Shown: positions 1 to 22,200, numbered from the stretch's first letter. The stretch is DNA of 64,000 nucleotides from Candidatus Omnitrophota bacterium (GCA_021735655.1 JAIPGM010000001.1:161728-225727), one strand, 5' to 3'. Numbers and translations: made by a program. Notes: a model not told the origin generated them from the letters alone.

Positions 1-1
1 C

Positions 2-1240: not shown

Positions 1241-4200
1241 CCCTTGGATAATGGTAAGCCAGAAGTTCCGATGCCTTCTTCTTATTGGATCGATCATAGC
1301 CTTCTTCATGAAATTGATAATGTTTGGGCTAACTTGGATTGGATTAATCCCGGGCCAAGTTTAAGCATAGCTCGCCAGATTGAGAAAAATTTTAAGCCAG
1401 CACAAGAGCCAGGTTTTTTAAGAGTTAGCATAGATGCCTTTGGTCCGCTTAACGGATTTAAAAATCAAGTATTAGCTGAACATGAGCAGTATTTTGATTC
1501 CGAGGTTTATAAAGATTATCGAGCTGGCATAATTCATGCTATTGATAATCTTTGGCAACACGGCGGAAAGTACGGTGCCTTATTTTTGATGGCTCAGCTT
1601 AGAGGACGAACCGTACGCTTTACTTATTGTTTGCTAGATCGCGGTGATGGTTTTATTAATGACGATTACAACCATGTTCGTTTAGAAGAAGCCGTTCAGG
1701 CACATAGAACATTTAAACGAGCCGGCAAGAATGGTATGGGCCTTTATTATATGGCGATAAAGCCGGATTATTTTTCAATCACCGCGGTTAATTGCTACCG
1801 GGCTGTTGCCACAACTCAAGCTCACTATTGGGAAACTGGCTACACTAAAGAATGGCCGTTTTGCCCGCAACAAACTCCGGTTAACAAGGGGGTGCGGGTG
1901 ATTTCGGTAAAGGATGTAGCTTTAGGCCTTTTGCCATTTTCGAATATGCAGCCGTTAGATAATGGCCGTCGAACTGATGAAGAACGCCTGGATTTTATCG
2001 GATTTTTAGTTGAGTCATATTTAGAGGCTTTATTTACTTTCCGGAGGTTAAGAGCAAATAACAGCGAAGTAGCCGAGATGTATCTGCCAGCAATTTCCGA
2101 AACTGCCGTTAGAAAGAAACGAGCCAAATGGGTAGTTACAGCTGTTGAGGTTGCCCGTGAGGCATTTCAGGTTATGGCTCGAGCTGATTTTCGACATTCA
2201 TCCGGCTTAACCATTCGTTCAATCTTTGATTCAATTTTGGCTTCTGGCGGTCGCAACCAAGCAGCTAATGATCTAGGAGTCGATCGCGCTAGCCTTACTC
2301 GCTGGATGCATAGCTTACCTAATGATTTATTAGGTGGGTTAGATCCAGAATTAGCAGTCTTCAAACAAAGAATCCTTGATTTATTTGATGAAAACAATAC
2401 TCGACCCCTAGACAACGGTAAAGAAAATATAGATTTATTAGCGGTTACAGCAGTTAAAAGAGAGGACACCTCACCGTGGCTGGCGGGCCCTCTCTCTGCT
2501 GTAGCCCCTATATATATAGGTAAACAGCAGGGGCCGCTAGATAACGGCCGAGCGCCTTTGGATAATGGCCAGCCAGCTAACTTTTGGAAAGTTTTGCATT
2601 CTGGTATATACGTACTTCCGATATATTACACTCGACTTTTCGATACAGCTAAAGACGCAGGAATTGGAAAATATACTTATGTAGTGCCGTTTGTTCGTGA
2701 TCATGTATTGTCTTTAGGCCATCAAGCGATACTTTTCTTACCGTTTTCTTTGCAGTTACCTTGGTCGCAATCTCCTTATGATGCGGCTGATTGGCGTTAT
2801 TTTAATACTGATTATATTGATTGGGGGCTTATCCCTGAGGCTCAACCTTTTCTAGGTAAGTTCGATTATTACGGTCATTCACAGCGTAGCGTTGATTTTC
2901 GATCAATCCGGCCACGTGAATTATTAATCGGAAAGGCCGCCTTTCTTAATCTCAGAGACAATCGAGAAAAACAATACCGCCAGCGCTGGGAAGATTTTCA
3001 AAGGTTTGTTAACAATCAGCGAAGTAGAGGGCCGGAGTGGGATTTAACCCATCTTGGTCATTACCGGGCCTTCAATGATGTCTTGGGTAATGATTTTGGT
3101 TTATGGGTTCATGAAGGGATGTATTGCCCTAGGCAGGATACCCATCCAGATGTTATCAAGTACAACGTTGCTGAGCAAAATAAAAATATGCAATATTCAG
3201 ATTTAATTCAGTTCTATCAATACCAGCAATGGATTGCTTTCGGCCAGGCTCGCGATATGCTTGAAGGTTTGCGCAATATTGGTGTCTTTTATCTTTTAGA
3301 TAATCCTTTCTTTCATGCTAAGGGTGGTATTAATTTTTGGACCCAAAACATCATTTCAAGAGATAGGCATTATGAATTTTTTGATCGTTCACCCGGTGTA
3401 CCCGGAATCGGTAGTGACCCTGAACAATTCTGGACATCTTTGGTTCCTTGGAATTGGCCTAGATTAAGAGAGTTGGACTATGAACCTTTCTTAAACCCTT
3501 ATCATTATTATTTAGGTGATTTGGGCGCTCAGGGAGTTCGGGCTGATGCTATTCATTTTCTTTTTCCTTGGATTCATTGGGAACGCGGTCCTTATGCTGC
3601 TAATTTTCAGAGTTGGGAGTCCCCGGGTCATGATTTACTTTGGAGATTAGACAACGTTTTTAATTCTTATGGAGCTTTCAGGCTTGGCGAGTTACTTGGC
3701 CCGGGTTTTGAAAGTATTCAGAGAATGGGCTTTGATAATTATCACTGGCATTTCTATCGGATGTGGAAATGGGGTGGCGGACCTGATTTAAATCCGGGTT
3801 GGAACGCAAAAGCTTTAGAGTTACATGATGGGCCGCGGGTTTGTGTTGACCATGAACACGGGTTCTATCCTTATGCCGGACACGCTTATTTACGGCATCG
3901 TTTGGAGGGCCCGGGCGGTCTAAAAGAATTAAATAGTCGTTTCCTTTTAGGCAGTTCGGATATAGCTATGGTTTATGCCGGAGATGAAGTAGCCGACAAC
4001 TGGTGGATAAATAACCCTAATCTGCCTGAGTGGATGATGGATCGTAATTGGGCCACTCGAATGCCAATGCAGGGCGATCAGGATTTTGATCTTTCAGTAG
4101 CCTTGTCCATGCTTGAGCATCGCCGTTGGATTGGCCAGCGTCTAATTGAGCGGACGCCTTTGGATAATGGTAAGCAAGAGTTTAATCATCTTAGCTTGGT

Positions 4201-7200
4201 TGAATCTAACGGTGAACAAAAGTTATACTCAGCCAGTAGTTTAGTAATATCTCAAAGGGGAGTCTATTTAAGCCCGACATCAACCGGGCCGAAAGAGGTA
4301 ATTTCTCAGATTCAACTTAGCCCAAGCGGAATTAAAGTTTCCGGGGAGTTAACTAGCCAGGAGCCAAAATCCCGGCCAATAGATTATCGTCACTCTTATG
4401 AAATTAACTTTTATTTTGAAAAATTAGCTAAAGCCTATGGCCGCGGTTTGTTTGTCGGTATCAATGACGTACAGCTTTGGATTCGTCTTAGCCAGGCTTT
4501 GGGTGATTTTTTATGGGGCGTTTTGCGTCTTGAAACAGGGATTTTTGATATTCCCGATAGAAAATTACGACGCCTGGTGATTCAGGAAGCGCTTTATCAT
4601 GAGGTGATGACTAGTGCCTTGGGGCTTTCAGTGGCTAATCGCGGCTTGCGTGAGTTTTTTGCAACCATTTTAAGTGTCAGCCATTTTTGCTATCTTAGCG
4701 AGATAGCTAAAGATCAGGATAAGCTTAATTATCGTTTAGGGATTCTGCAAGCTCTTGATCGGGGTTTAATCCAGATGAGTGATTCACTGGCTGGGCTATA
4801 CCGTCAAATTGCCGAGTCTGGCAGTTTACCTGATCCAGCAACCTTGGTAAAAGCAGTTATAACCCATATTAATGAAGAAGAACGATACCATAGTGACCGG
4901 CGTTCATTTAGGGATTATGTTCGAACTAAGTCCGAGAATTTTAGCGGACGCTTTACAGTCGGAAATCTTACCCAGGCGGTATTAAATGATTCAGCTTTAC
5001 AGTTAGAGTTACAGGCAGAGTGGACAAATTTCTTGGGATTTTTAGCTAATTCACAAACCGTAGCCCGTGCCTGGCAGCCGAAAATTAAATTTATAAGAGG
5101 TCCGCGGGGCATAAAGGTTATTAATCCCCAAGGCGTACCGGATCAAGGCGGCTATCAATTCCAGCTGCAAAGTTTCCGGGCAATTTTTGACTGTTTGGGT
5201 TTGCCTAATCCGCTTAGTGAGCCAGCTGCCCTAAATAGATATTTAGGTTTTCTGCCTGAGCCTCCTGAGTATGACTCCCAAGCCGTAAATTTACCGGAGT
5301 TAAACATCAGTCAAATTTTACCCGGAGTAGCTGTTGTTTATCCGGATAGTTTGGAAGCTAATCAATTAGCGGTAAGGCGAGCTTTGTATGAATTGATGAA
5401 TTTTCGGGTTTGGAAGTTAGCCGTTGAAATACGTGGCGCCTTAGGTACAGAAGATGCTTTGTTTTTTGATCAGCATTGTCAGGTACATTCCTTTGTTGAT
5501 GTAGCCCAAGGGTGGATGTTAGATTTAAATCCCCAAAGCCCGATAGTCTATGATGATGTTTTACCCGGCGGCCAAGCTTACGAAGCGCCGGAGCAGCCGG
5601 ATTTAGCCGAACATGAGCGATTGCATCAAAAGGCTCAGGCAGTTTTTTCAAAAGTTTGGGCAATCACTATGAACAGGTTCTTGCGGGATCAGCGGATGTT
5701 TGGCGGTGAAGCCGTGGGTTTAGTTGGCTTTACTACAACCGTACCAATATTATATCGTTACATACAGCAATGTAAGCATTCTGAGCCGGAATACTCACTA
5801 CAGCGACCTTTGAATAATGGCCTAGGCATACTTCAATATTTACAATCTTTACGTCGTAGCCAGGAAACCGAGGCTGCTAGAAGGGTTAGTCTAGACCAAG
5901 GCTTTGGGCAATTAAAAAGTTTATTAGTTGAAAAATTACAGTCGATTGATTCAACCACTTTAAGCATTGCAAATCTTGATCAGGCTTTGAATGAAGATAG
6001 CCAGGCGATATTTTTAACCTTAGAGCAATTAAGAGAGGCACGCTTTCAGGCTGAGAGCTTTCGTAATGGGCAGGTAAGTATGTGTGATCTTGCTAGCCTA
6101 GCTTTGGCCGCTGCCAGCGAAGAAGTTTTTGGCCAGAGACACTTAGTTAAAATAGTTGTTGGCTATTATCGGGTTGATGAGCAGCTATATAAAAAACATT
6201 ATTGGGTTGTGATTGATGAAACATTGTTGATTGATATAACTTATGGTCAGTTTGATCCGGACCATCTCAATCGTATTTTAGTTGCTACAGTAGATGATTA
6301 CTTGAGATTAAAATTAGAATATGGTACAGAGTTAGAGCCGCTTGATAATGGAAAACAAACTCAAGTTCAGCCTACTTGTTTAGAGGCTAGGTGGTGGAAT
6401 AATTATTATCCCGGGGTTATCGAAGGAACTGGAATAAGGCCGACTGCCCGCTCACTTAGCTTTGAGCAGATCGAAGAAGTGGTTTGTCTATTACTTCTCG
6501 ATCAAGCCGGCCAGGAATTGGTAGCTAAAATAATAAATAGAGAACTGCCCGATGTATATCCTTCGGTTCGAAGAACCGCTCTTAAAGCTATGGTCAGGTT
6601 CGATCATTACGAACTTTTTGGCCCGAAGATAATTACTTGTTTGCAGGATGTAGTCAGAGATGGAGCTGAGATGTATCAGCCTTTTGCTCTTTATGCTTTG
6701 GCTCAGACCCCGGCTTTTAATGGCCCGGTTGCCAATAGATTTGCCGAGGAAGCACTTAAGGGGACCCTTAAACCAAGCCCAAGAAAGCCTACCGCAGCCG
6801 AAAAAACTGCCTTACAGGAAGGGTTAGAGCCAAATACTCAAGCGATTAGATTTAAATCCCGGCTTGCTTCAGTTGAATATTTAAAAGGAGTTTTAGCTCA
6901 ACGTCAAGGTTGGGCTCGGGTTTGCCTCGGAACAGTACCACATTTTAGTCGGGTTAGCAATCGCGCTTTAATCAATAAATTTGCTGCTCAGGTATTAGCA
7001 GCTGATAAAAAGCTTTCTTCTAGTTCAGCTCAGCGACGCCAGAAAGATAAGTCAGAATTTTGGGGTCTTGAGCAAGCTGAGTTTATTCATCCAGCTACTG
7101 GCCATGAAGCTTTGGTTGAGCTGGCCAATGATCCGGAGTTATCATCTAGTGATGAAAGTCCTTTGGTTGATCAAATACTACATCAGATGGAGGAATTAGG

Positions 7201-10200
7201 TTATGTGCCGATATTGCGACCCAGTAAATTTCAGCTTACTGAGCCAGCTCAAGGTCAGGAAGCTGAAATTGATCGCGAGGCGCTTTGGACCAAGGATGCT
7301 GTTTTGATGATTTCTACTAAATTCGGAATAGTTCCGGTTTCTTCAGCATTAGCCAATCTTAAGGGCGGTGAGTTCGTCAGTGGCTATGGTAAGCGCGGCA
7401 GCTTTATGATTATTCCGGCAGCCGCTCTAAATTCAAAACAGCAGCTATCTGATATAATTCCCGAGGTTCCGATTCATGTATTTCCTTCGGGATTTTTGGT
7501 GATCAATGATCAGGGCGTAATTCGTTTAAGAGGAACCTCGCATATTGACACTTCTTTAGGAGCAATTCCGATTATGGCCCGGCCAGAATCAGGCCAGTTG
7601 ATGTTAATCGATCCTTTGTTGCATCAGGTTGCCCGTACACACCCTCGCTATCGCGATCACTATCAATCAGTAGTTCAAGAAGATGGAGTGCGTTTTATTG
7701 ATGTGCCCGAGCCTGAACGTCATTTAAATCCTGCTAATTTTGGTATTCTTCCCGGTGGAGAAATATTTATGCCTTATGCGCCGCGGACTAAACAAGTTTT
7801 AATTGAGGCTGGGGTTAATGAGCAGTATATAATAATGTTACCAAGTGAATTTAATAAGTATTTACCAACCCTTCATGTTTTGGCGGGGAGTATTGGCTGT
7901 TTAGTGGCCCAAGCTTTTCATCCGGTTGAGAAGCGAGAGCCGCTCGACAATGGCCATGAAAAAGAAAAACGGCAAACTAGATCCCGAGCAATAGATATAT
8001 CAACCAAAGGTGCTGAAGATTTATTGTTTACTGAGCTTCAAACAGGGAGTTTAGTTAGTTTAGTGGTTGATGGCCTTGAGTATTGGCTTAGCCTTGACCA
8101 GGGCGATGAAGTTTGGTTTGATTTATATCGGCCTAAAGATGATATCATTGGCTATATTTATTTTCGAAATGACGCAATGCCAGCCAGAAAAATAGCCAAT
8201 TTTGGCGGCCCGAGCATTGTTCCGGCTTACCGGGGCAGGCATTTGTCGCGAGTTCTTTATTTTGTTTATTTTCGTTATCTTTGGCGCAATAATTATATCC
8301 CTGAAGAAGACTGTTTGACTATCGATGATCGATTGGCCCTAAAGCTTTATCATGAAGCTAAAAAGTTTTATTACGATCAAGACCATACCTTTACTCCGTT
8401 TCAGATTATTCCCCGAGCCGAAAAGACTAAAGCTGCAAAACCTTTAGATAATGGCCACGATATGGTTCAAAAACAATTATTTGAGTTAATTAAGCGTAAG
8501 TCAGATTCGATTAAAACTTTCTTAGAGCCGTTTGAAGCTTGCCTTGCTTACAATGGAGTGTTAGCTTTGCTGATTCGAGGAAGGCCTGACTTGAGCGTTA
8601 AATTTTTGCTTAAGAAGATTGGCTCGGCTGAGCATTGGTTTTTACTGGCTGAAACTGTTTTAGGAAATCATCAGTTTGTGGTTGATATTTCGCCGCAAGG
8701 AAAGATGTTTACCGATATTGAGGTGCTGGTTGTAGATTGTGCTGAAGCCGGAAAAATAAATTATCTATATGAAGATTATACTGTAGTTAGCGATCAAGAA
8801 ACCGAAAACTTATTGCGAGCCTTAGCAAGACAAAAAGGGATGAATGAGTTCTTGCATTTAGTTCATCAATTACCAGAAGAAAAATGGATAGGTAGGTTAC
8901 CGGATAGTGACCAGTCGATGCCACTTGATAATGGTAAATTAATCAATGAAGGTTCAGAAAGTTCTTTTTCCGATATAACTAATTCGATGCGGGTGACTTT
9001 TGTTATGCCGATGTACAATGAACAGCAACGCTTACTTCCCAAGACTTCTGATAATCCCTATGGTGAAGATGCTTTAAGGGTTAAAGTAAGTCAATTTAGA
9101 GAACTCGAGCAAGAAAATCCTAATTTCCAGTGGCGGCTAATTGCCGTAGATGACGGAACTCCCGGGTTTGCTTCAGCCAAATGCCTTGAGCAGATTTTGG
9201 CTGAGATTGATGCCCAGAATCGGGAATTTAATATCTATTCTAAAGTTTTCGTAGTGGTGATAACTGAACAAGAAAAGAAACTCCTAGGCAGCCGAAAGGG
9301 TGGAGCGGTTTTGCGTGGCTTTCAAGAGGCCCTAAGCCACGGTTGGGCTGATTATATCGGGATTACTGATACTGATATTTCCAGTAATGTTAACCAAACT
9401 AAAGATTTGATTTTGGCTCTTCGCAAAGGTGCTGGAGTAGCCATTGGTTCACGCCGCCAAAGCGGGGCCGAAGCTCGCGGCATACCGCTTTTAGGGAGAG
9501 TTAGCACAGTTATTTATAATTGGTGCATTCGTTTGATTTTGTGGCCGCTTTTTTCAATTCGTGATACCCAGCGCGGTTTTAAACTTTTTCAAAAAGAAGT
9601 AATTGTCAGAATATTACCCTATGCTCGCGATCACCATCTTTCTTTTGATACTGAACTGTTACTTTTGTCGCGTTTAGCCGGATACCAAATAGCTGAGGTG
9701 CCGATTGTCTGGATTGATTCAGCTGAGGCAACTACTTTGGTTATGTCTAAAGATGCTCCAGCGATGCTCTGGCGAGTGATTAAACAAGCCCGCCATATTT
9801 TTAATAATCCTTTTCGCGGCCAAAAGCCGCTCGATAACGGCCGAAAAATAAATCTATCAGTTAGAATGCTCAGAAAAGCTAGATTAATTACTGTTCATGT
9901 TGATGCTGGAGATTGTCCAGCCGCCTTAGCTAGCGCGATTGATAAATTAGTTTCGGGTTTAGGGCAAATCCAAGTAAGCCGTAGTAATATTGTCTTAAAC
10001 ACCGCCCATCAGAATAGCCCTATGGATATTGTTTCGTCGGTAGGCTCTCTCTCAACTGAACAGATAACAACTTTATTTCCTGAAGCTGTTTTTCTGATTG
10101 CTGGCGGCAATGTGTTTAAATGCTTAAGAAATCTAGTTGAGTCATTGGCTGTCGGCTCAGTGAACAAGCGAACTGTTAGGATTTTTGTTCTTTACGATTA

Positions 10201-13200
10201 TACCTATGGCCAAGGCTCTAATTATAGCCCTGAGCAATTAGCCGGTGAATATTATGATTATTTTAGCGATATGCTTTCAGTCTATAGTGATAGGTTTAAT
10301 CTAGCTGTATTTTATCTTGCTCAGAATCAATTCGAGCAGGAAATTTACGGTAAAAATTTATCCGGGCCCAATTTATCTTTAGCAATTATTGAAAAAGAAG
10401 CTTTAGCTAGTCAAGTACCTTTAGATAATGGGCGTAGTCTTGGGGAGTTAACTGCCGAAGGCTACAACTTAAAGTTTCTAGCCCGCAGTTCTGATTTAAG
10501 AATGACTGCCCATTGCCGAAGAGATGTAAGTTTTAATAGTTATCTTTATGATTATCGCCTGGATCCAGAGCATACTTATCGTCAAGCCCAATTAGTTCCT
10601 TTAGTTGCTCGATCGGTTAAGGAAAATGCTTTTAGAAAGTCTTCTGATTGGCAATACTTGCCGCAGCATTTGAAAGATTTATACGATTCCGGTAAAGTTT
10701 TGATGATTGCTTCCCGAGCCCAAGCTAAAGCTAAGCCTAGCCGGTATTCAGCCTTAGTAATTTCTGGCAGGACTGAGGCTTTTAGCGGCCGGATGGGTAT
10801 TTTACTCTATGACAATCGGCCGATCATTGTTTCAATTTTAGATAAGCCTTTTTTCATTGAAGCTAAAGGAATCGGGGTTGCTCAAGGAGGTTTTAGCTCA
10901 GTGCATCGGCGCTCGGGCCATAGATATGAAGTTACCGGGGCTCAGCGTTGGCAAGCTTCCTTAAAAGAATTTACCAGTTTAGAGCTTGAGCGAAAAATCA
11001 GCCGATTTTTTGGAACAGCTGATACCCCACGCGCCTTAGCGGCGATAGTCTATAAATATCCTCAAATGGATCAGTTAATTAGTGATAGCCTAACTAGCCA
11101 GGCTGAGCGAAGAGAAGCTAAAGAGCAGTTAGGCGATAGTTTAGGGATAATGTTGCGGCTTTCGCCTTCGAGCCGCCGCTTTGCTTATAATTTAGAACAG
11201 CGTCACATTAGAATGCTTGGTGAAGCTTCAGCCCGCCTGCTTTGTTCTTATCTTCCCCGAGTGCATACTTCGCCGCATTTTGAAAATCTTCTGGAGTGGG
11301 CCGAAGGCAGTGAATTCTCTTGGTCAGACTATGGAGATATTGAAGTGTTATTTGCTCAAAGTAGTTATCACTGGTCAAGGTCACTGATTAATGCCCGTCG
11401 GATATTAATGTCTTATTTGGAAACTAGTATTAGCTGGAATGTAAATTTATTAAAAAAACTGGGAATAATCGAAACCGAAGCAGAATTTATCAGCGAATAC
11501 CTAGCTGGCTTTGTTGCTTATGCTGAAACTTTAGACTGGATAACTCCTGAGGCAATCGAACGTTTAGCCCGAGTCCGCTCGCCTAAGGAGTTTGTTGACG
11601 TAATGATTTTTGAAGTATTCGCTTTAAATGCTTACAACGTGTTTAAAAAACAAACTTATGAAACTATAGTTGAAGTTAATCAGAATAATTTAGTAGAAGA
11701 ACTTTTAAGCTCGGCTTTAACTATTGCCCAGCGGCAAGAGAAAGCTCAACTTGTTGCTGAGTTAAGTGGACATATTGAAGCAGCTAAACAAGGAGAGGCT
11801 TTTTTAGGTTGTCGAATAAAAAAATCTCAAGCTAATCAAGGGGTGCTTACGCCGGTAGCTCAGCCGGTTAAAAATAGTTCTTGGGCTAATCCCTTTTTTG
11901 ATCAATTCGCTTATGATTTATGGCATGCGCTACTTTTTGATGATCATAACCTTTATGATTATGTTCAGGCTAAATGGGATTATACTGTTGGTGAAGAAGG
12001 GGCTTTTAACGTGGCCGGATTTTATCTGCTTGATGCTCATTATCTTGGGTTGTTGCGTTCGCGCACCAGCATGCATAATATACCGGAAAAATTATATATG
12101 TGTTCAGCTGGATATGAAATGACTGCTAATATCAACAAATTATTGACTGCGATTAATCGAGTTAGTTTGTGCCCTCAGGAAAATACCTTGGTGCGTTCAA
12201 CCGTACGTAACACCTTACAACATGCGATTTCCCAGCGCCTAAGTAAGTGGCGCCTGGCTCGGGCTTTAATATTAGTCGTTGAATCTAACGGCGAAGTTCT
12301 TGCCGGAGACGACAGCACTTATGTTTATATTATGGATTCTGGTCCGGGCATGCCGATTGATGCGGTAATGCAAGGCGATTGGCGAAGACATAGTACGATG
12401 TTTGGTACGGATTTAAAAGGTTTTCGTGAATATAGGGACGTTGAATGGATTCTTGATTCTTGGTCAAGCAAAGCCGGCGGACCGCAACGTTGGGATGGTC
12501 TAAGAGGGGGGCTGGTTGAGGGAGCTTTAGTACCGGACAACATGCCTTTATTTGGTACTTTATTCGGTATGCGGCTTAAGCATGGCTTAGAATCGAGTAG
12601 CAAACCTTTAGACAACGGTAGAGATTCTCGGTCAAAAGGACAAAATCTTGGTAGTTTAGGAACGGCTAATAAGGCCCCTCCGGTAAAAACTTACAATGTC
12701 GAGAGTCCTTTTAATCGGTTTTCGCTGCGCCTTTTAGATTTAATTCTAACCTTATCTTTCTTGCCTCTGATTATTCTAGCTAGCCTACCCATAGCTATAT
12801 TTGTTAAATATCAGATTTTTAAACACAAGACTGGACAGTCAGTTATTTTTAAAGAGCAGAGATTCGGCTATAAGGGTAAACCGTTTATCATGTATAAATT
12901 TCGTACTTATATCGGCGATAAAGATAATCCTAAGGCAGTTTTACTGAGCTTGCGTTGTTTGGGGCTAGATGAGTTACCGCAGTGGTGGAATATCTTAAAG
13001 GGCGATCTTTCAATTTGGGGAGTGCGCCCTAAGTTACAAGATGATCCCAGCTCTGACAGTGATTTCCAAGCACACCTGGATCAGATCAATGATTTACGCA
13101 AGCCGGGAATAATTAGTTTAGCTACGGCTGATGTGCACGCTGAGATGGAGCATGTTTCTTTTTCAGCCGAGCATCGCGATCGTCAGATCGCCTTTGATCT

Positions 13201-16200
13201 TTATGAAGCAGAGTATTGGTCATTCTTTTTAGCTTTTAAAATTGTTGTTTTGAATATCTTTGCTCAATTTAAAGAAGCAGCCAGGATTGTATTCCGAAAT
13301 AAAATTTTAGTTATTGTTGCCGTGCATATTCCGCAAGCCGAGCAGCCAAAAGCCGGCCCAATTTTAAATATTTTAGAATACTTAAGCCAAAGATTCCCTT
13401 CGAAATATTATAGTGTCTTTGTTGGTTTTCCGGATTCAGGAAATCCCAATTTAAATTTAGATTTAGCTATTCCTCAAGGCTTAACCATTGGCTTAGGTGA
13501 AGGCGATGAATACAACATAGTTAATTCTCAAGGCCTTAAACTTAAATTTAGCTGGCAGTTTGAGGGGCCAGACGATTTAAGCCAAAGAACTTTAAAAATT
13601 GGACGCCACAAGTTATTAATGCCATTGTGCGCTGAAAGTTCTCTTCCGGTATTTTCCGGAGCTAAGAAAAAAATTCCCCATAAGGCTATCTTCATTCCCT
13701 TTATTGCTTTTCGTCCATGTATTGTTACCTGTATGAATGATTTAATATTTCTCAATCTTCCGATAATTGGATTAGATACCGCTAATGGCATATTTTTGTT
13801 TGTTCCCGGCTCAACCCAGATTGATATAGTCGGTACAAACAAGCTTCTGGCCGTAGCAATTAATCATTCCGGCAGGGTGATGGGCAGTTCATTTAAAGAT
13901 TTGGACCAAGTCGTTCCTTTAGATAATGGACGTCAAACCATTTCCCACTTCCGAAGTGGGGAAGGTCAGAGCCGGACCGGCCCGACATCCCGTAATTTCC
14001 CCCTGGATAACGGCGGCCGGAATAATGAAGCTATCGAAAACAATCGGTTTTCATTCGCTAATCGTCTAGGAAAAGTTTTAGTTGCTACTGTTATCGGTGG
14101 AATTTCTTTAGGGTTATTGTATTTATTCGGCGGCCTTGATTGGTATACAAATATAAAAAATAGTATTCCTTTAGGGGCAGTGATTTTCTGGCCGGGGGCT
14201 TTCCTGGATATGGTTACCGGTGTTTTGATCTGGTTAATTTCCGATATCGTCGGTCAATATCTTAATCAGGGTAGAAGCATTCGCTATCGGCAAAGTTTTA
14301 AAGTTGGTGCTTGGGGAGTATTTCAAGGGTTGGCTACTCACATTTTGTATAATTTAGTTGAACTGCTTCCGGTTGTGCCTTTACCTTTAGCGCAAGCAAT
14401 GTTTCGAACTATTTTTACTCTTTTTGGCGGACTGACTATTAACATTTTCTATACCGTGGTTGTAGCCCGGGCTCGTAAAGCATCTAAGGCTGAAGGTTAT
14501 AGCGGCCTAAAGGAGCGCCACAAGGCTTATGATGTTATTTTTAGTAAGTTTATCGTCGCCCCAATCAAAACTTATTTTATAGTTAATCTATTACCTCCGG
14601 CAACGCGGGTTATTAGCGAGCAGGCTTGGGAATACTTAATGAAAGTTTTTGATGCTTATTTGATGAACCGTAAAGATTCACTTTTTTCTAGTTATATTCT
14701 AAATTTATTATCTAGAAAAAAACCTTTAGATAACGGCCGCTCCGGGCAGTCGGATGATCAAATAACTTTGGTTTCTGATAATCTGGTTGACTCATTTAGA
14801 AATGTTAGACAAAGGCTGGTAGTAACTGTTAGGCGCGCACAGATGTCTAGATTGGATTTTAAGCCGGGGATAGTGTCACTTCAGAATATGAGCCCAAAGG
14901 TAGATTATTTCTGCCTTTCTTCAATATCTGAACGCCAAGAAGATATCCAAGCCTATAGGCAAGTTCCTTTAGTACAGGATGGTGCTAGTTTTGGAGAAAG
15001 TTACAGTGAAAAATATCTTATTGCTCAGGAACCGGATACCTTAGTTTTAGTTGAGGGTGATGAAGGGTTGATTGCCAGTTTTGATTATTCGCTTTGTGGT
15101 TGTCTAGTCATTCGGGCTAGAAATCTTTTTGGCATGGCCCACTTAAGTCCATTTATAGATTTTTCGGATGAAGAGATGGAAATTGAAAATGATCGGATTT
15201 ATTATAAATATTTATCAGTTTTAGATTATTTCAAATTACAGGGATATAAAGATGTTCAAATTTTTCTCAGTTTGAATGAGCTGCTTCAGGGATTTAAAAC
15301 TTTAAAAGCTAGGCTTTGGTCGGCTGGTGATAGCGATGCGACTAATCGTCAGAGAGTGGTAGATCTTCTTGGGATTGAGGCTAGGCAACGCGGCATAGCT
15401 GTTGTTGATCGCCGCCTTCGACAAAAGTCTGAGGTTCTAGATGTCCTGGGTTTTCCGAGAAAAATGATTAGCCGTCAATGGCTTAATCGCGGCACAAAAC
15501 CCGAAAGTTTTGAAATAATATTTATTGAGACTAGAGATGAGTTGCCAGTAGCCATAAACTCAGAGACTCAACAACCCGAGATTGAATACTTTCAATTCGC
15601 TTGGCCTGTTGTGATACCTCTCGATAATGGCCGCCGGAAACTACCAAATGATGACTGGATTTGGGTTAATGGAGAGAGTTTGCAATTTGTTGGCCGGGAC
15701 GGTTTATTGATAACAGGAATGGAGGGCCGGGGTAAAAGTTTTTTGGCCAGAAAAATATACGATAGCGATGATAGATGGAAAGTCGTATCCTGCGGAGCTA
15801 CTCATGTATGTATAAGGAATGAATTAGCAGAAAGAGCGCTTTTAGGCAGACGTTTATCCGAAAATAATCTTTTATATTCCCGGCTGTCAGGAACAATCCC
15901 GGTAGAACTATCGTTAGATGTAGTTGTTAGGTTGAACTGGGTTATGGCCTTAGACGATCTATACCGAGAAATTTTAGGGGGATTGTTGGCCGATGCCGGG
16001 CAAAGAGAGTCTTTGGGCCTCAAAATTATAGATATGAGCGATCTAGACGTAACTCGGCAATGGCCGAAAGTGTTGAAGTTCATCAATGCGTCTATTGTGA
16101 AACCAGAGACTTACGATAAAGGAAATAGTTTATTTCAAGTCCCTCTTGATAATGGTAGACGAGCTCAAGTTGAACAGGAACGGGAATTTTTGATCCAGAC

Positions 16201-19200
16201 AATCATAAATGTTTTTAGCCAAGGTGAAGGATTATGCCTGGAGCCGGCGCAGATAGAGGCAGCTATTGCTGTAGATACATCATTTGATGAATACAGGATA
16301 GCTAGAAACTTGCCGATAGTTATTGGCCTAAAGGGTAATATTTATGAAAATTGTCCTTTGGCTAGCAAGCCTCTTCTTCTTGTGTTTACCGGCAGAGGAA
16401 GCATAACTAAACCAGAGCTTATCTTCAATGCCTACACCCAGCAAGGTTTAGTCAGAGAAGCAAGCCGTTTAAGTCGTTCGATGGAAACTAAAAATGCAAT
16501 TTGGGAGATACCTTATCATGGCAAGAAGACGGCTTTCATATTGGAAGATAAAAATAACTGGATTGCTTTGGCGGCAGTTTATGGTCCTGAAGATATTTAC
16601 CAACAAGGACTATTGATCTGTAAGGGTGGAGATAGGATAACCAGGTTAGGTACAGAAATTTCTCAAGCCGCTGGTGAGGCAGATGAGGAAGCTATATTTT
16701 CTGATTATTCCCGGGCCTTAGTGGTTGCTCGTCTTTTAGGATTTTCTATCCTTGATGGTCCAGATATGATGCGCCGGGTTAACCGGCGGATGAGCGCTAT
16801 GATCGCGGCAGCAAAAGAGACTGTGGCCGATATCAATGAGTTTGCTAAGGCATACCCTGGTTATGAGGCTGTTGATACACATCACATACTTAAACCTACT
16901 ACCAGTAATCCGGTGGAAGAGGGAGGTTTCCCGCACACTGAATGGATGGTGACTAGTCGAGGGGTTGTTCAGGGGACGGTTACTGCTTTGCGTTGGCTTA
17001 GACAGGTTCTTGACGTTGGAGAGAATAGGTACCCTGAGGAAGTGGTAAGATTTGTTAAAAATTTGAATATATTTGGAAGTCCGATGAGCTATATTGTCCA
17101 AGGCTTTGGTGATGTTGGCAGCGGCATCACTAAGCTTTTTTTGACTATTTTTAAGATTTTTGGGTTTCAGGCCAGGGGTTTTAATAACCGTTACTTTGCA
17201 ATTTATCGCCGCGAAGGATTACCTAAACCATTTTTAGTTGAGGCGCGGGAGATCGTTGAAGTTTCTCCTGATGCTTTAGATCTAGGGAGATTACTGGCAA
17301 TGAAGAGTTTTGATGACCAATTACAGGGGGCGGTGGTTTGGATAGCTAATCCAATTAACCCGAAAACTAAAGAGCCAGTATTTGGTCCTGCTGATGTGGA
17401 CAGAGTAAATCAAGCTCTTGCTGAAAGAGGTGTTACTGCTATTTGGGGTGATCAGACAGTAGTAAATGAACTAATTTATCAAAAGGCAACCGTGCTTTTT
17501 CTGGCTGCAACCGCTAATGTTATTAGTGAACTTTCTCAGGTTGAAAGATTGCAGGTTAAGATTATTTCTGAGGGAGCTAATAATGCAGTTAAACCTGAGT
17601 TAAGAGAGCCTTTAAGAAAAGCTAATGTATTTTATATTCCTGGTGAGCTTCTTAACGGCGGGGGCATATATGCTTCTAAGGAAGATATTCGGCATAACCA
17701 TACCGATGGATCAGAATTAATAAGGCAACATCGGCAATACTATTATATACATGTAACTGATGAGATCGACACATTGGCTCTTCACCGAATGATTTCTTTC
17801 CTTGAGATTTGGGCTGAGTCAGCAGGAAATTTTTCTTTTGATTTAACCGTCCATGTAGAAAAAGTTGCCGGCCGGATTTTTGAAGCAGCTGATAATTTGG
17901 TAAGAACCAATAATACACGTTTGAGAAAATTTACCCAAATTGATCAAAAGAGAACCTTTGATCATCAAGCCGGCCGGCCGACTTTGCCTTGGCGTCATAG
18001 TCTTTATGAAATTGCCATTGAAATGGCACCAATGGGAATACTTTATCATTTGCGGGATGTCGGTAGACACTTATCTTTACTTAATAGATTTAAGGTTGCA
18101 ATAAAGGAAGATGGTCAGATAGATAATTATCATATATGTCGTCTGCGTTTTGCTTTATTTGAGTTGACCAAGCTAGGCTATTATTTAAAAAGTAACCAGC
18201 GCAGAAGGTTAATCGGCCTTCTTCCTGGAATAATTACCGATGAAAAGTGTGATGGCCTATTAAGGAAAGATGCCATGTTTTGTTTGGCAATGGCAATTAG
18301 GTGGCAGGAAGAAGAATCCTGTAAATCTGAGGTAGATCGGGCAAGAAAATTATATTTAGGCATATTACAAAATCCCCTTGAAAGTGCTCAGCTGCATACC
18401 TGGGCTCAGCATTGTCTCTATAGGATTTTCGGAGAAAATTACTTCCGGCGGATAAGCGCTGATTTTGATCGCTTAAACGGAGTTAACTTACCCAAGCCGC
18501 TTGATAACGGTCGGGATAGTTCGGTCGGGATTACCTCAGAACCGTTAAGAATTTTAGCCGAGCTAATTTCGAATAGTTATCGGACTAAGGCTTTAGTAGA
18601 ATTTTTGCAGCCTTTCTTAGATTGTGAATCTGTTAATTATTTACAAGAAGAGATAGCAAAGCATTGCCAGCTACCGGCCTGGGGTGTTGTTTCTTCTAGC
18701 CATTATCTTGATGAAGGGTATTTCTATTATGGTTTAAAATCCGGTATTGATCGCTGTCTCGAAAGAGGAGTTATGGTTGAGAATGACGGTAACAGATTAT
18801 ACGTTACTAAAGATTCAGAGGATACCGTAAAATATAGCGGCCTTGACGAAACTCAAGAAAACCAGTGGGGAATTTTTATTTTTCCAAGCGAGTATTTCAA
18901 TCAGGCTATCAATTGCGGTTATGCCGAGGCCGGCTTAAGGCTTTCACATAACCGCTTAGGCATAACTACTTATCCATACTTCAAAAGTTCTTTATCGCTT
19001 GCGCCGGCACGCTTTCTGATAATTGATAGATCTAAGGCAGATGAACATAGGCACCTGGAAGGCCAGCCGAAGCTAAAAGATAAACTTCAAGCCTTGACCG
19101 AAGCAGGATTGAAGGTTCTATGGTTGCCGGATTCTTCCGGCCCATTCTTTGACCCTGATTTCCAATATGCTTTCGGGGAGTTGTTGTTTAGTAATGATAT

Positions 19201-22200
19201 TCCGGAAACCAATCGCTTTCTTTTTTATCCGTCCGCAGATACTCAAGATCTTACAAAAATCATCTGGTGGGTTTTACAGTCGTTAAGAATGAGTAGTATA
19301 AAAAATCGGCTATTACATAATATGGAGTTAGCTCGGCAATTTAAAAAAATCGGCCCCTTTGATAATGGGCGAGCTGATTTTACAACAGCAGACGAACAGA
19401 TCGGTAATCTTTTTGCTGAGGCAGTTATTACAGGAGATAATGTTTTAATTGAGACTCATTGGGATGCTGTAGCGGCTAAGAGAGGCGGCAGTTTGAATAT
19501 TTTAGAACATGCTGGCTTAAGGATTACAAGAAGTTTAGCTTTAGGAATTGTACCGCGGGCTGGTGAATGGCCGGATAGGGTTGAAACCGATCAAATCATT
19601 CTGAGTTCATCTCGCTATGGTTGGATCGATTCTGAAAGAGATATTGAGCATTTGTTAAGCGGCTTTGATCAAGCCAGATTGCTTAATTCGTTTAATCTTG
19701 GCCATTATTATCAGGGTTGTCACTATCGAAGTTTCCTAAGCTGGCTAGCGGTTTTAAAGAGTAGTCATTTCCCGGCAGTTATTTTTCATTTCATAGGTGA
19801 GCTAATTAATTCTTGGGGTATTAAGCCAGCTGCTAAGAGTGATTTTCCAGTTTTGGCCAGTCGAAGGGATATCTTTTCTTTCGTTAGCGTGCCTTATGTT
19901 TCAGATATAGAAAAATTAGATTTGCCAGTTGCAGTGTTTTTTGATGGTAAGCTTAGTTCGCTTAGGCGTGGCGATAGCCGGAAACAGCCAACTTTAATAT
20001 TAGCTTATTGGCAAGCTTTGAATGGTTTTATTGGTTTTAAAGAACAGATAGCTAGGGAAACAGCAGAATTTCAGAATACCCCTTTAGATAATGGCCGCAA
20101 AGAGCATGACATCTCTGATAGTACGGTAATCCAATGGCCGCTTAATGTAATTGTTAAAGATATGCGCGGTTTATCCAAAGGCGAGATATTAGCTGTTGTT
20201 AAAACCGGTAAAATATTTTGGGGAAGGGAAATAGTAGGAGCTATTTTTTCTGACCGCAATATTGTTTTTGGTAAAGTGGTCGATGATAAGTTTATAGTAT
20301 TTGATGATTGGTTAATTGAAAGAATTCCTGGAGGATTGTTAGAGGGGTTGCGGAGAAGCATTTTATTTTTGCCTTATTTAGGAAGTATTTTAAGAAACAA
20401 GACATCGTCAATAAATAAACCCCTGGATAATGGCAAGAAATATAATTATCGGCAAGTCCTAGAGATGGTTGACTGTTTTGATAGTGCAAGGTTAGAGGCT
20501 CACTTATTTAGAGCTCTTGGCAGAGTTGAGACTGAAGCCGTATCTATAGCTGGTGATATTATTAGGGCGGCTAGAAAATTTGAACGGATAACTAAAGCAG
20601 TAAAATCTCTTTATAGGAAAACTTACGGCAAGCTACCTAATTTTACTCTTGCTTTCGATCCTTCCGGTCAAGGTATGTATGGGGCGTATCAGGAGGATGA
20701 TACAGCCGGATTTTTTGATCATATTGGCGTAGCTCCAGAAGATGTGCTGCTTGAGGTAGGCAGCGGCGATGGAAGCATTTCGGATTTCATGGCCCATATG
20801 TTTGGGATTAAGGCAACTGGGATTGAGGTTTGGGAGCCATATTATCATTACGCAGTTTTCTTAAGAGATGAAGCAGTAAGAAGAAGATTCATTCCAGAAG
20901 GTAAAGTAGATTTTTTAAATAATAATTTAGTAGATGTTGATTTTTCAAAGTATTCTTTAGTGTACTACGCTGCTCTTGGCACAAGAAGAAAAAGTGAGCT
21001 GGCTGCTAGATTGCTTGGGGTAAGAGAAAAATCCAGGATATTAATTCGGGGTTCACCTGATGAGTTAGTGGAAGGGATTATCGCATCACATCCTGATTTT
21101 AGCTTAAGGAAGCTTGAGATAGAAGTTAATGAAAACCTTACTGGAATTAAGGCAAGGGTTTATACTCGAGAGACAATTACCAGTTACCAGCCGGTTCTCG
21201 ACGTTCCTCTAGATAATGGCCGAAAAAATAACCCTCAGATGGTCAGAGCGCGCTTAGCCGCATTTGAAAAATCAATCGAGGGCATCGTGCCTAGGGCAGA
21301 TCCGCTTTATGACCATTTAATTCGTTTTTATCAATATCCTTTGAATAATTTGGGTGAACCTGACGAAGAGACCTATGTAAGGAATAATACCAAGGAGCAG
21401 GAGCGGGAGCTTCTTAGATTCTGGGCCGGCCATTTCGGCCTTCCTAAAAATTACGGCGGTCATGTGACTATCGGAATCGGTCAGGCTGAATATTATGCCA
21501 TGTACGTGGCTAGCAATCGATTTCCCAAGGCTATATTTTATATTTCTAATCAGGTCGATAGCCTTCTTTATGATACTTTACAGGTGTTGGGCATTGATCA
21601 AGGAAGAATAAAGTTAATTAGGTCTTTAGAGAATGGCGAGATCGACTATGGTGATTTAAAGAGAAAGATTAGGGAGAATTCATCATGGCCGGCGGTGGTC
21701 TGCTTGACTGCTGGCAGATTCCTGGGGGCGGTTGATGATTTAGGAAAAGTGGAAGGAATTTTAGGGAGCCTGGGCCTAAAGCATAAACATATTCATTGCA
21801 GCATGTCACCGTTAAGTATAGGCCAGTCGTTTTTGGAAGATGCGGCAAAGATAGATTTTCAACATGGCTTAGATAGCATGAGTCTACCGTTGTATCATTT
21901 TGTAAGGTGTCCGATGCCAGGAGTCATCGTTCTTACCAGAAGGAAATACCTTCAGAACATTGCTTGTAGTCAAAAAGCAGCTGAGTATGTTAACTCTAAC
22001 GACACCACTAATTCTGGATCACGTAGTGGTCATGCTCCGCTTTATCTTTGGTTTGCTACAAAAGTTATTGGGACTAAAGGATTTAAGGCTCAGGCTGAGC
22101 GGGCCAGGGAAGTTTGTGTTTCTATTAAAGCTCTATTTGACCGTTACGGTTATCCTTGCCGGTTCACCGCGCAAAAAAATACAATAATCTTTGAGCCACC

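What the first reader, a model, noticed from the sequence alone, without database searches (positions are those of the whole stretch)
12620..14722. Integral membrane units embedded between soluble enzymes create a topology problem that favours physical separation of units
Seen in sequence: unit S13 starts with the re-entrant helix of a PglC/WbaP-type phosphoglycosyl transferase. Unit S15 (14015-14722) has at least four transmembrane-length hydrophobic helices. Unit S27 (27638-29077) has an N-terminal TM helix. All three are flanked on both sides by cytoplasmic-type enzymes (GHKL-like, P-loop, dehydrogenase-like, GH100-like). Inference: an uncleaved chain would need to thread about 1 MDa of soluble domains around several membrane insertions. 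Co- or post-translational release at the PLDNG sites removes that constraint.
Basis: partly seen in the sequence, partly recalled or inferred. Interest (0 to 1): 0.6.

Follow-up and report, generated by a model that had tools for sequence, protein, structure and literature searches.

The report
Membrane modules inside a PLDNG-punctuated giant protein
A giant Omnitrophota gene strings about 28 enzyme-sized units together with an invariant five-residue PLDNG junction; the membrane units in it are real but enter and leave the membrane on the cytoplasmic side, so they do not force cleavage, while the junction motif is the first concrete candidate for where such giant proteins are cut.

Summary
In the 9,751-codon ORF (56..29311, still open at the window's 5' edge), TM-length hydrophobic segments occur only in three PLDNG-delimited units. 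S13 is a PglC-type monotopic phosphoglycosyl transferase. S15 is a confidently folded helical membrane module. S26 is an MggS-like GT4 with a marginal 26-residue hydrophobic N-terminal extension.

S13 has the re-entrant-helix determinants, which place both termini in the cytoplasm. S15 has an even number of membrane passes and a family-wide positive-inside pattern giving N-in/C-in. In relatives the S15 module sits directly after a cytoplasmic GT2 domain, inside continuous giants with no junction motif. Only S26 could pose a threading problem.

Separation at PLDNG gains independent support:
- 27 invariant sites against 0.008 expected, with synonymous codon variation.
- Hydrophilic flanks.
- Unit ends that match stand-alone homologs.
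- A 63%-identical ortholog that keeps PLDNG at the S12/S13 junction, where homology stops.
- A second Omnitrophota lineage that brackets the same S15 module with a different motif, RSExR (22 copies).

No protease was found, and cleavage is inferred, not shown. Membrane segments in Omnitrophota giants are already described. The junction motifs are not.

The parts
56..29311 (+). Giant multi-enzyme ORF (9,751 codons from the first ATG). The frame is open from window nt 2, so it probably continues upstream of the window.
   Evidence: S0 aligns to TreT only from TreT residue ~195.
12605..12619 (+). PLDNG junction between S12 and S13. It is conserved in ortholog P0170/L008 with 3 synonymous differences, and homology ends here.
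12620..13930 (+). Unit S13 (437 aa): PglC-type monotopic phosphoglycosyl transferase plus a C-terminal domain of unknown function. It ends in PLDNG (13916-13930).
12728..12811 (+). S13 residues 37-64: putative re-entrant membrane helix (R38-x-x-D41 ... S56-L-P58 ... K64).
   Evidence: Determinants as described in PMC6133551.
12713..13273 (+). S13 residues 32-218: PGT catalytic fold with the LDELPQ Asp-Glu dyad.
13931..14014 (+). Unit S14: 28-aa mini-spacer bounded by PLDNG on both sides.
14015..14737 (+). Unit S15 (241 aa): member of a helical membrane-module family found so far only in Omnitrophota or unnamed metagenome sequences. It ends in PLDNG (14723-14737).
14075..14131 (+). S15 TM1 (residues 21-39)
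14183..14245 (+). S15 TM2 (residues 57-77)
14306..14362 (+). S15 TM3 (residues 98-116; weaker hydrophobicity)
14402..14467 (+). S15 TM4 (residues 130-151)
14531..14665 (+). S15 helices 6-7 (residues 173-217): a conserved polar-faced helical hairpin (RVxxEQxWDY...YLMNR). Whether it spans or only dips into the membrane, the pass count stays even.
8936..9841 (+). Unit S10: DPMS/GtrB-like GT2. In relatives it is fused directly upstream of the S15-like module. A relic start is visible at unit residue 18 (MRVTFVMPMYNE).
27551..27637 (+). Unit S25: 29-aa mini-spacer preceding S26.
27638..29092 (+).
27686..27763 (+). S26 residues 17-42: marginal hydrophobic helix (two Arg, central SAP) inside a T-rich, 27% GC extension. 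The relic start Met45 is at nt 27770.

Best explanation
The window comes from a Candidatus Omnitrophota MAG. It carries a giant ORF of the 'multi-enzyme' kind, built from gene-like cassettes joined by an invariant PLDNG pentapeptide that is usually followed by Arg or Lys.

The stretch 12620-14737 encodes two genuine membrane modules:
- S13 is a PglC-type monotopic phosphoglycosyl transferase. Its N-terminal helix dips into the inner leaflet and re-emerges.
- S15 is a helical module from a family seen so far only in Omnitrophota or unnamed metagenome sequences: four hydrophobic TM helices plus a conserved helical hairpin. In relatives it is the C-terminal membrane domain of a DPMS/GtrB-like GT2, which here is unit S10.

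Both modules start and end on the cytoplasmic side. Inferred: they tether the lipid-linked-sugar steps of the pathway to the inner face of the membrane. An intact chain would not need to thread anything across it.

Separately from topology, PLDNG is a selected peptide signal marking cassette boundaries. The most likely reading (inferred, not shown) is that it is the recognition site of an unidentified sequence-specific endopeptidase. On that reading the giant is a bacterial polyprotein, the 28-29-aa units S14 and S25 are discarded spacer peptides, and cleavage would also free the N-terminus of S26.
For: Membrane modules:
- establish them.
- Both-termini-cytoplasmic for S13 rests on homology to PglC plus the conserved R-x-x-D and S-L-P determinants, on published topology mapping (PMC6133551), and on natural N- or C-terminal fusions (PMC11626204).
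- N-in/C-in for S15 rests on the alternating K+R pattern across 19 family members and on direct fusion behind a cytoplasmic GT2 in P0121, P0127 and P0130.

PLDNG as a selected junction signal:
- 27 sites against 0.008 expected; every position invariant; the flanks are not conserved except +1, which is R/K in 23 of 27.
- Codons vary synonymously.
- The flanks are hydrophilic (KD -1.26 at +5..+14 against -0.24 overall). They have low pLDDT in both AF2 models.
- No PDB-sequence hit spans a site.
- Unit ends match stand-alone homologs. P0134 (248 aa) matches S15. The MggS-like GT4s start at S26 Met45 and end within about 15 residues of the next PLDNG.
- Ortholog P0170/L008 (63% identical over S12) keeps PLDNG at the same junction with 3 synonymous changes, and homology stops exactly there.
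- An independent lineage (L002, NCBI GCA_964460795.1; also P0126) has 22 and 6 copies of RSE[VIMAL]R, also with synonymous codon variation. They cut its giants into units of 35-1026 aa and bracket the S15-like module exactly, at 626 and 884.

Lineage: window proteins are NCBI MCF7907298.1 and neighbours, annotated Candidatus Omnitrophota.
Against: - No protease domain was found in any unit or neighbouring gene: Pfam to E 5, NCBIfam, and PDB sequences.
- Most giants carrying the S15 module have no recurring motif. Junction motifs are therefore not a general requirement, and uncleaved operation is evidently possible.
- No proteomic or biochemical evidence of cleavage exists.
- TM calls come from hydropathy scales, charge counts and AF2, not from a trained topology predictor.
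- The kink of the S13 helix is not resolved in the model: DSSP calls one helix, 30-68.
- S13 has a 4-residue insertion in the first helix arm and lacks the Lys of the Lys-Arg dyad.
- The N-terminus of the ORF lies outside the window, so upstream signal peptides, TM segments or a protease cannot be excluded.
Confidence: 0.55

Rival explanations
1. The membrane units make an intact chain topologically impossible or costly, because soluble megadalton flanks would have to be threaded across the membrane. That constraint is why the PLDNG release sites exist.
For: S26 has a hydrophobic N-terminal helix with more positive charge on its C-terminal side (SRMMKGK). If it spans the membrane, the N-terminus is outside, which is feasible only with a short free N-terminus. 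Both S15 and S26 are immediately preceded by mini-spacers bounded by two PLDNG sites.
Against: - S13 is monotopic with both ends cytoplasmic.
- S15 is N-in/C-in. It is tolerated inside continuous motif-free giants and sits directly behind a cytoplasmic GT2.
- 24 of the 27 junctions join units with no membrane segment at all, so topology cannot be the general reason for the motif.
- The S26 helix is marginal, sits in a T-rich extension absent from homologs, and has a central Pro like a re-entrant helix.
- TM-rich giants are the norm in this phylum.
Confidence: 0.12
2. The chain is not cut. It works as an intact, membrane-tethered mega-enzyme. PLDNG is a non-cleaved short linear motif: a docking site for a partner such as a scaffold, chaperone or modifying enzyme, or a defined Asn-Gly turn that insulates neighbouring folds.
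For: No protease was found. Related giants function without any junction motif. Asn-Gly is a strong turn former (general knowledge). The 2026 survey reads TM-only giants as membrane-anchored cytoplasmic assemblies.
Against: - A structural hinge would not need five invariant residues across 27 unrelated contexts and between orthologs.
- A different lineage uses a chemically unrelated motif (RSExR) at the same boundaries. That fits a co-evolving reader protein, but does not by itself separate binding from cutting.
- Tiny units of 7-43 aa bounded by two motifs have no obvious role in an intact scaffold.
Confidence: 0.25
3. Co-translational peptide-bond skipping: a 2A-like 'StopGo' mechanism acting on bacterial ribosomes at PLDNG-R/K.
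For: The motif is short, acts at the peptide level, and ends in N-G followed by one preferred residue. This is superficially like the viral NPG|P (general knowledge of 2A peptides).
Against: - The 2A consensus D(V/I)ExNPGP is not present.
- 2A function needs about 18 conserved upstream residues, whereas positions upstream of PLDNG are not conserved.
- 2A is not known to work on bacterial ribosomes (general knowledge).
- The RSExR lineage has no Gly or Pro at all.
Confidence: 0.04
4. Spontaneous or small-molecule-assisted chemistry at the labile Asn-Gly bond (succinimide formation) splits or isomerises the chain without an enzyme.
For: Asn-Gly is the most deamidation-prone dipeptide and the classical hydroxylamine cleavage site (general knowledge).
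Against: Succinimide chemistry mainly deamidates rather than cleaves (general knowledge). It would not require invariant P-L-D upstream. The parallel RSExR motif has no Asn-Gly.
Confidence: 0.03

Closest known systems
Omnitrophota giant proteins, 'multi-enzyme metabolic cluster' / TM-only class (bioRxiv 10.64898/2026.06.07.730766; West-Roberts et al. 2023, bioRxiv 10.1101/2023.11.21.568195)
   Same: - Same phylum.
- Many unrelated enzyme Pfams tile one polypeptide.
- Sugar-metabolism content (GT1, GT2, GH77-like).
- Sparse TM helices embedded among cytoplasmic-type domains.
- Whether such proteins are cleaved is explicitly left open.
   Different: Those papers report no cleavage points or junction motifs. 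A term search of the 2026 preprint found zero occurrences of motif, cleavage, linker and polyprotein. [quoted passage not shown] Here an invariant pentapeptide recurs 27 times at cassette boundaries. The visible ORF (9,751 aa) is just under their 10-kaa catalogue threshold but is truncated by the window edge.
Small and bifunctional monotopic phosphoglycosyl transferases (PglC; BiPGT class)
   Same: S13 has the PF02397 fold, the Asp-Glu dyad, and an N-terminal hydrophobic helix with a basic/acidic cap and a Pro break. It carries extra domains on both sides, as BiPGTs do.
   Different: It is embedded about 4,200 residues into a giant chain. The first helix arm is 4 residues longer. The dyad is Leu-Arg instead of Lys-Arg. 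GPRP is changed to GVRP, and an ~11-residue loop is deleted. Activity and re-entrant geometry were not tested.
Polyprenyl-phosphate glycosyltransferases with a C-terminal TM domain (DPMS 5mlz, GtrB, ArnC)
   Same: S10 is a GT2 with a weak match to DPMS 5mlz. In relatives it is followed directly by the S15-like helical membrane module, which is the same domain order as in DPMS.
Viral polyproteins (picornavirus/potyvirus type) and multi-core RiPP precursors (e.g. cyanobactin PatE)
   Same: Short, strictly conserved, lineage-specific recognition motifs flank each product. Small spacer peptides lie between some sites.
   Different: This is a cellular bacterial chromosome. The products are metabolic enzymes and membrane modules. 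No embedded or adjacent protease was recognised, and cleavage is not demonstrated.

Membership tests
Monotopic phosphoglycosyl transferase (PF02397, PglC/WbaP superfamily), for S13 | Profile match above the curated threshold | tested here: met
   PF02397 E 1.6e-27, 96.6 bits against a cut-off of 27
Monotopic phosphoglycosyl transferase (PF02397, PglC/WbaP superfamily), for S13 | Catalytic Asp-Glu dyad in the LDELPQ motif | tested here: met
   L116-D117-E118-L119-P120-Q121 are invariant in the alignment with 19 PGTs and aligned to PglC
Monotopic phosphoglycosyl transferase (PF02397, PglC/WbaP superfamily), for S13 | Re-entrant membrane helix determinants: an N-terminal basic dyad and a Ser-Pro or branched-chain-Pro break | tested here: inconclusive
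   R38 and D41 align to the K-R-x-x-D positions, but Lys is replaced by Leu. S56-L57-P58 aligns to S-P with a one-residue insertion, and the first arm carries a 4-residue insertion. The AF2 DSSP string shows one helix, 30-68, so the kink is not resolved.
Monotopic phosphoglycosyl transferase (PF02397, PglC/WbaP superfamily), for S13 | PglC-like three-dimensional fold | tested here: met
   The only significant Foldseek PDB hits are 8g1n, 8e37 and 8t53: E about 1e-10, prob 1.0, TM (target-normalised) 0.61-0.64 for PglC
Monotopic phosphoglycosyl transferase (PF02397, PglC/WbaP superfamily), for S13 | Both termini cytoplasmic (experimental topology) | not testable with these tools
   Inferred from family behaviour (PMC6133551). 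Needs SCAM or reporter fusions.
Omnitrophota multi-enzyme giant protein (class 1 / TM-only architecture) | Encoded in an Omnitrophota genome | tested here: met
   Neighbouring proteins are NCBI MCF7907298.1 and others, annotated Candidatus Omnitrophota. Named S15 and S12 relatives come only from Omnitrophota MAGs.
Omnitrophota multi-enzyme giant protein (class 1 / TM-only architecture) | Many distinct enzyme families tiling one polypeptide, with none dominating | tested here: met
   GT1, GH77-like, GT2, PGT, GDH-like, methyltransferase-like, PLP decarboxylase, GH100-like and GT4 in one ORF
Omnitrophota multi-enzyme giant protein (class 1 / TM-only architecture) | Length of at least 10,000 aa (the catalogue threshold of the 2026 preprint) | tested here: inconclusive
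   9,751 aa are visible, but the frame is open to the window edge and S0 is N-terminally incomplete relative to TreT
Proteolytically processed polyprotein | Recurrent conserved site motif at product boundaries | tested here: met
   27 PLDNG sites under peptide-level selection, conserved in an ortholog, with boundaries matching stand-alone homologs
Proteolytically processed polyprotein | A cognate protease, embedded or encoded nearby | tested here: not met
   No peptidase family in any unit or in the 23 downstream ORFs screened, apart from a weak alpha/beta-hydrolase (S33-like) hit at 59338-60477. The upstream part of the ORF was not visible.
Proteolytically processed polyprotein | Demonstrated cleavage products | not testable with these tools
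   Needs proteomics or expression experiments
2A-like ribosome-skipping peptide | D(V/I)ExNPGP consensus with a conserved upstream tract | tested here: not met
   The motif is PLDNG[RK], and the upstream positions are not conserved

The most novel reading that the evidence does not exclude
Some Omnitrophota lineages have converted operons into true cellular polyproteins. Gene-like cassettes, including membrane modules, are joined by a lineage-specific 5-residue signal: PLDNG in this lineage, RSExR in another, possibly EGRSLPN in a third. A dedicated, co-evolving and still unknown endopeptidase reads the signal. This would be a bacterial counterpart of viral polyprotein expression, and it would give exact cleavage points for giant proteins.
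Probability: 0.45. Interest if true: 0.9.

Novelty: new variant of a known kind. Interest (0 to 1): 0.62.

Why it matters
Whether the giant proteins of Omnitrophota act as single chains or are cut into many products is an explicitly open question. West-Roberts et al. [quoted passage not shown]

The PLDNG and RSExR junction motifs give exact, testable candidate cleavage points and unit boundaries:
- Proteomics can search for termini at them.
- Each unit can be folded or expressed on its own.
- A cognate protease can be sought by co-occurrence.

For the narrower topology question, the result is a correction. The membrane units inside such chains are built to start and end in the cytoplasm, so membrane insertion does not by itself argue for cleavage.

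Tried and rejected
1. Protease hunt. Pfam at E<=0.01 on all units and at E<=5 on the unannotated ones, NCBIfam, and phmmer against PDB sequences on both halves of the ORF found no peptidase.
2. By eye, S16 seemed to carry a CheD-like C-x-C...GMAH Cys/His signature. A permissive PDB search gave only noise (E about 1, homing endonuclease), and S16 has no homologs among 1.84e9 representatives. The idea was dropped.
4. DNA-level signal. Synonymous variation at both PLDNG and RSExR excludes a nucleotide repeat, and no consistent in-frame start follows the sites.
5. A universal junction motif in relatives. Most S15-bearing giants show nothing above shuffled expectation. The L006 repeat LLPQWAAHQPILYGW lies inside hydrophobic segments and is not a junction.
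6. Units shared between the PLDNG and RSExR systems, which might have included a common protease. Only the S15 module is shared.
7. Literature. 'PLDNG' gives no relevant paper, and polyprotein/giant/bacteria searches found nothing relevant.
8. Fetching DNA downstream of the window via the last ORF failed because there was no exact record. The genome and metagenome scans found only 2+2 S15 loci.
9. Assembly artefact is unlikely. The same sequence occurs in an NCBI MAG contig (341 kb) and a Logan assembly contig, and a 29-kb stop-free frame with GC3 like its neighbours is not chance.

Full report
**What is in the window.** A single reading frame runs from the first ATG at 56 to a stop at 29311, 9,751 codons. 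Ordinary bacterial operons follow on the same strand: an Opp-type ABC transporter, ABC-2 exporters, many radical-SAM/SPASM/B12 enzymes and GT4 glycosyltransferases. The neighbouring proteins are exact matches to NCBI entries MCF7907298.1, MCF7907301.1 and others, annotated 'Candidatus Omnitrophota bacterium' on a 341-kb MAG contig. The same DNA also occurs in an independent Logan assembly contig that breaks off inside the giant ORF. The frame is open all the way to window position 2. The first unit aligns to trehalose synthase TreT only from TreT residue ~195. The ORF therefore almost certainly continues upstream of the window.

**The junction motif.**
- The ORF contains 27 exact PLDNG pentapeptides against 0.008 expected from composition. 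None occurs in any other frame or ORF of the window.
- All five positions are invariant. The next residue is Arg or Lys in 23 of 27 sites. Other flanking positions are not conserved.
- Codons vary synonymously (CCN YTN GAY AAY GGN), so selection acts on the peptide and not on the DNA.
- The ten residues after each site are strongly hydrophilic: mean KD -1.26 against -0.24 overall.
- Junction-proximal residues have low pLDDT in both AF2 models.
- The motifs cut the ORF into 28 units of 7 to 925 residues.

**Checking the observation.**
- S13 matches Pfam Bac_transf (E 1.6e-27). It aligns to PglC crystal structures over residues 32-218. Its AF2 model finds only PglC and WbaP as significant structural neighbours.
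- S15 has four clearly hydrophobic helices plus a conserved, more polar helical hairpin. It is modelled at pLDDT 91.6 and pTM 0.86.
- S26 is a GT4 related to mannosylglucosylglycerate synthase. Its hydrophobic stretch (residues 17-42) is marginal: KD 1.73, crude deltaG about +2.9, two Arg and a central S-A-P. It lies in a 44-residue, T-rich (27% GC) extension. Stand-alone homologs lack the extension and start at MKGKNIGFVS, which aligns to S26 Met45.
- Flanking units have no hydrophobic segments. Where identifiable they are cytoplasmic-type enzymes. No profile supports 'GHKL-like' for S12.

**Topology of S13.**
- The alignment to PglC puts S13 R38-x-x-D41 on the family's K-R-x-x-D cap. It puts S56-L57-P58 on the Ser-Pro helix break, with a one-residue insertion, and there is a four-residue insertion in the first arm.
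- Entova et al. showed experimentally that this helix is re-entrant and places both termini in the cytoplasm. They also showed that branched-chain-Pro can replace Ser-Pro (PMC6133551).
- The superfamily includes a 'bifunctional' class with soluble catalytic domains fused to either end of the monotopic core (PMC11626204).
- A monotopic PGT sandwiched between cytoplasmic domains is therefore a known, working architecture.
- Caveat: the AF2 secondary-structure string shows one continuous helix (30-68), so I could not verify the kink.

**Topology and identity of S15.**
- An exhaustive HMMER search found 38 relatives of the S15-S17 region. S15-like modules (29-54% identity) occur as stand-alone proteins of ~250-340 aa (P0134, P0132, P0125). 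They also occur inside other giants of up to 6,938 aa.
- Named relatives come only from Omnitrophota MAGs.
- Across 19 family members, mean K+R counts per segment alternate 4.0 / 1.5 / 3.3 / 0.5 / 6.0 / 0.1 / 4.5 from N-terminus to C-terminus. This is the positive-inside signature of an even-pass protein with both ends in the cytoplasm, whether or not the terminal hairpin fully spans the bilayer.
- Independent support comes from P0121, P0127 and P0130. There the module directly follows a GT2 domain homologous to unit S10 (46-58% identity), and that domain must face the cytoplasmic nucleotide-sugar pool.
- This GT2-plus-membrane-domain order resembles DPMS/GtrB-type polyprenyl-phosphate glycosyltransferases. 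S10 weakly matches DPMS 5mlz. The S15 fold, however, has no specific neighbour in the PDB.
- In this ORF, S10 and S15 are separated by S11-S14.

- For both units inside the finding's coordinates, an intact chain would not have to thread anything across the membrane. The units would simply tether it to the inner face.
- Giants such as P0127, P0146, P0155, P0158 and L006 carry the same module inside continuous chains with no recurring junction motif above shuffled expectation.
[quoted passage not shown] It reads the TM-only class as membrane-anchored cytoplasmic assemblies.
- 24 of the 27 PLDNG junctions join units with no membrane segment at all.
- Topology therefore cannot be the general reason for the motif. 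Only S26 would need a short free N-terminus, and only if its marginal helix spans N-out. It is suggestive, but unexplained, that both S15 and S26 are preceded by 28-29-aa mini-units bounded by two PLDNG sites.

**Independent evidence that PLDNG marks separable units.**
1. Unit ends coincide with the ends of stand-alone homologs. P0134 ends within a few residues of the S15 C-terminal PLDNG. The GT4 homologs start at S26 Met45 and end about 10-15 residues before the next PLDNG. S10 carries a typical GT2 start, MRVTFVMPMYNE, 18 residues after its junction. These look like relic gene starts, as expected if an operon was fused.
2. P0170/L008 is a fragment of a giant from another Omnitrophota MAG (GCA_043809945.1), open at both contig ends. 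It is 63% identical to S12 over 720 residues and keeps PLDNG at the S12/S13 junction with three synonymous differences, while the adjacent residues diverge. Homology stops exactly at the junction. The next 233 residues match neither S13 nor any other unit of the window ORF. Units are therefore exchanged as cassettes at PLDNG.
3. A different lineage uses a different motif at the same places.
   - Locus L002 (GCA_964460795.1) has three back-to-back giants of 2,911, 2,552 and 2,131 aa, with 9+8+5 copies of RSE[VIMAL]R. Codons again vary synonymously, and the adjacent normal gene has none.
   - These motifs cut the giants into units of 35-1,001 aa. The S15-like module is exactly one unit, bracketed at residues 626 and 884 of P0147.
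   - P0126 has six RSExR copies, one directly after its S15-like module.
   - P0133 has five copies of EGRSLPN in Pro/Glu-rich linkers.

**Mechanism.** Five invariant residues in unrelated contexts, lineage-specific motif identity and exposed flanks are what a co-evolving sequence-specific reader would produce. A site-specific endopeptidase is the most economical candidate, and tiny double-bounded spacers are typical of polyproteins. This step is inferred. No peptidase domain was detected in any unit or neighbouring gene. The unseen upstream part of the ORF could hold one: West-Roberts et al. report C39 and S8 domains near the N-termini of Omnitrophota giants. Alternatives are a non-cleaved docking or hinge motif, 2A-like skipping, and Asn-Gly chemistry. 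They are weighed in the rivals section. The last two fit poorly because upstream context is not conserved and RSExR shares no chemistry with PLDNG.

**Novelty.** Giant multi-enzyme, TM-containing proteins in Omnitrophota are published. Both papers leave cleavage open. A term search of the 2026 preprint found no occurrence of motif, cleavage, linker or polyprotein, and 'PLDNG' has no relevant literature hit. The membrane-unit observation is therefore ordinary for this class, and the topology argument is mostly wrong. The junction-motif system around these units appears undescribed, and it makes the cleavage question directly testable.

**Limits.**
- No trained topology predictor was available.
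- Hessa-scale values are simple sums.
- The AF2 models carry no membrane information.
- The comparative set is small: two PLDNG-lineage members and two or three RSExR members.

Noticed in passing
window 1-1255: The giant ORF's frame is open from nt 2, with no stop before the ATG at 56. Unit S0 aligns to TreT only from TreT residue ~195. The ORF therefore probably extends upstream of the window, and the true N-terminus (signal peptide, TM segments, protease?) is unseen.
   Followed up: partly
window 2420-2569, 13931-14014, 27551-27637: Mini-units bounded by PLDNG on both sides: S3 (43 aa), S4 (7 aa, tandem PLDNGRAPLDNG), S14 (28 aa) and S25 (29 aa). S14 and S25 immediately precede the membrane units S15 and S26. 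The RSExR system also has 35-45-aa mini-units.
   Followed up: partly
window 5807-5821 and 19355-19369: Two one-mismatch variants of the motif: PLNNG (inside S6) and PFDNG-R (inside S19, which it would split into 286 + 242 aa). They may be decayed or alternative sites.
   Followed up: no
window 8936-9841 vs 14015-14737: S10 (GT2) and S15 (membrane module) are contiguous in relatives P0121, P0127 and P0130. Here S11-S14 separate them, including the PGT unit. The junction system apparently allows cassettes to be inserted inside what was one two-domain enzyme.
   Followed up: partly
window 21221-23494 (S22): The C-terminal half of S22 is strongly similar to serine/histidine decarboxylases (PDB 8jg7, E 1.9e-70). 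This is by far the best-conserved enzyme in the ORF. Its ~400-aa N-terminal half is unannotated.
   Followed up: no
window 43160-47014 and 50920-54078: Downstream ORFs are themselves multi-module fusions without any PLDNG: a 1,284-aa protein with three radical-SAM/SPASM modules and a 1,052-aa protein with two B12-binding radical-SAM modules. The window holds seven ORFs with radical-SAM domains in total.
   Followed up: no
L002 9986-10003 and 17657-17671 (NCBI GCA_964460795.1, CAYWRU010000025.1): The three RSExR-bearing giant ORFs lie in one reading frame. They are separated only by single in-frame TAG codons, each followed within about 12 nt by a plausible start (e.g. a NUDIX-like MTAHIYFVDSKGRF). 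Classical stop-start junctions and peptide-motif junctions coexist. Read-through was not examined. A 10-N scaffold gap lies just upstream, at 1232-1241.
   Followed up: partly
L006 (JGI Ga0315279_10000025, 335-kb contig), whole 20.6-kb locus: A stop-free stretch of at least 6,885 codons carries an S15-like module and eight copies of a hydrophobic repeat, LLPQWAAHQPILYGW(V/L)LP, some in tandem. This looks like a repeated membrane element rather than a junction motif.
   Followed up: partly
P0133 (6,932 aa) and P0150 (6,938 aa), relatives: P0133 has five copies of (P)EGRSLPN(P) inside Pro/Glu-rich linkers. P0150 has three copies of LTE(L/I)AKEVHPGQG. These may be further lineage-specific junction signals or domain-end repeats.
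   Followed up: no
window 13277-13915 and 14738-15631: The S13 C-terminal domain (~215 aa) and S16 (298 aa) have no detectable homolog in 1.84 billion representative proteins. S12 has a single homolog (P0170). Much of the ORF is lineage-restricted 'dark' sequence.
   Followed up: partly
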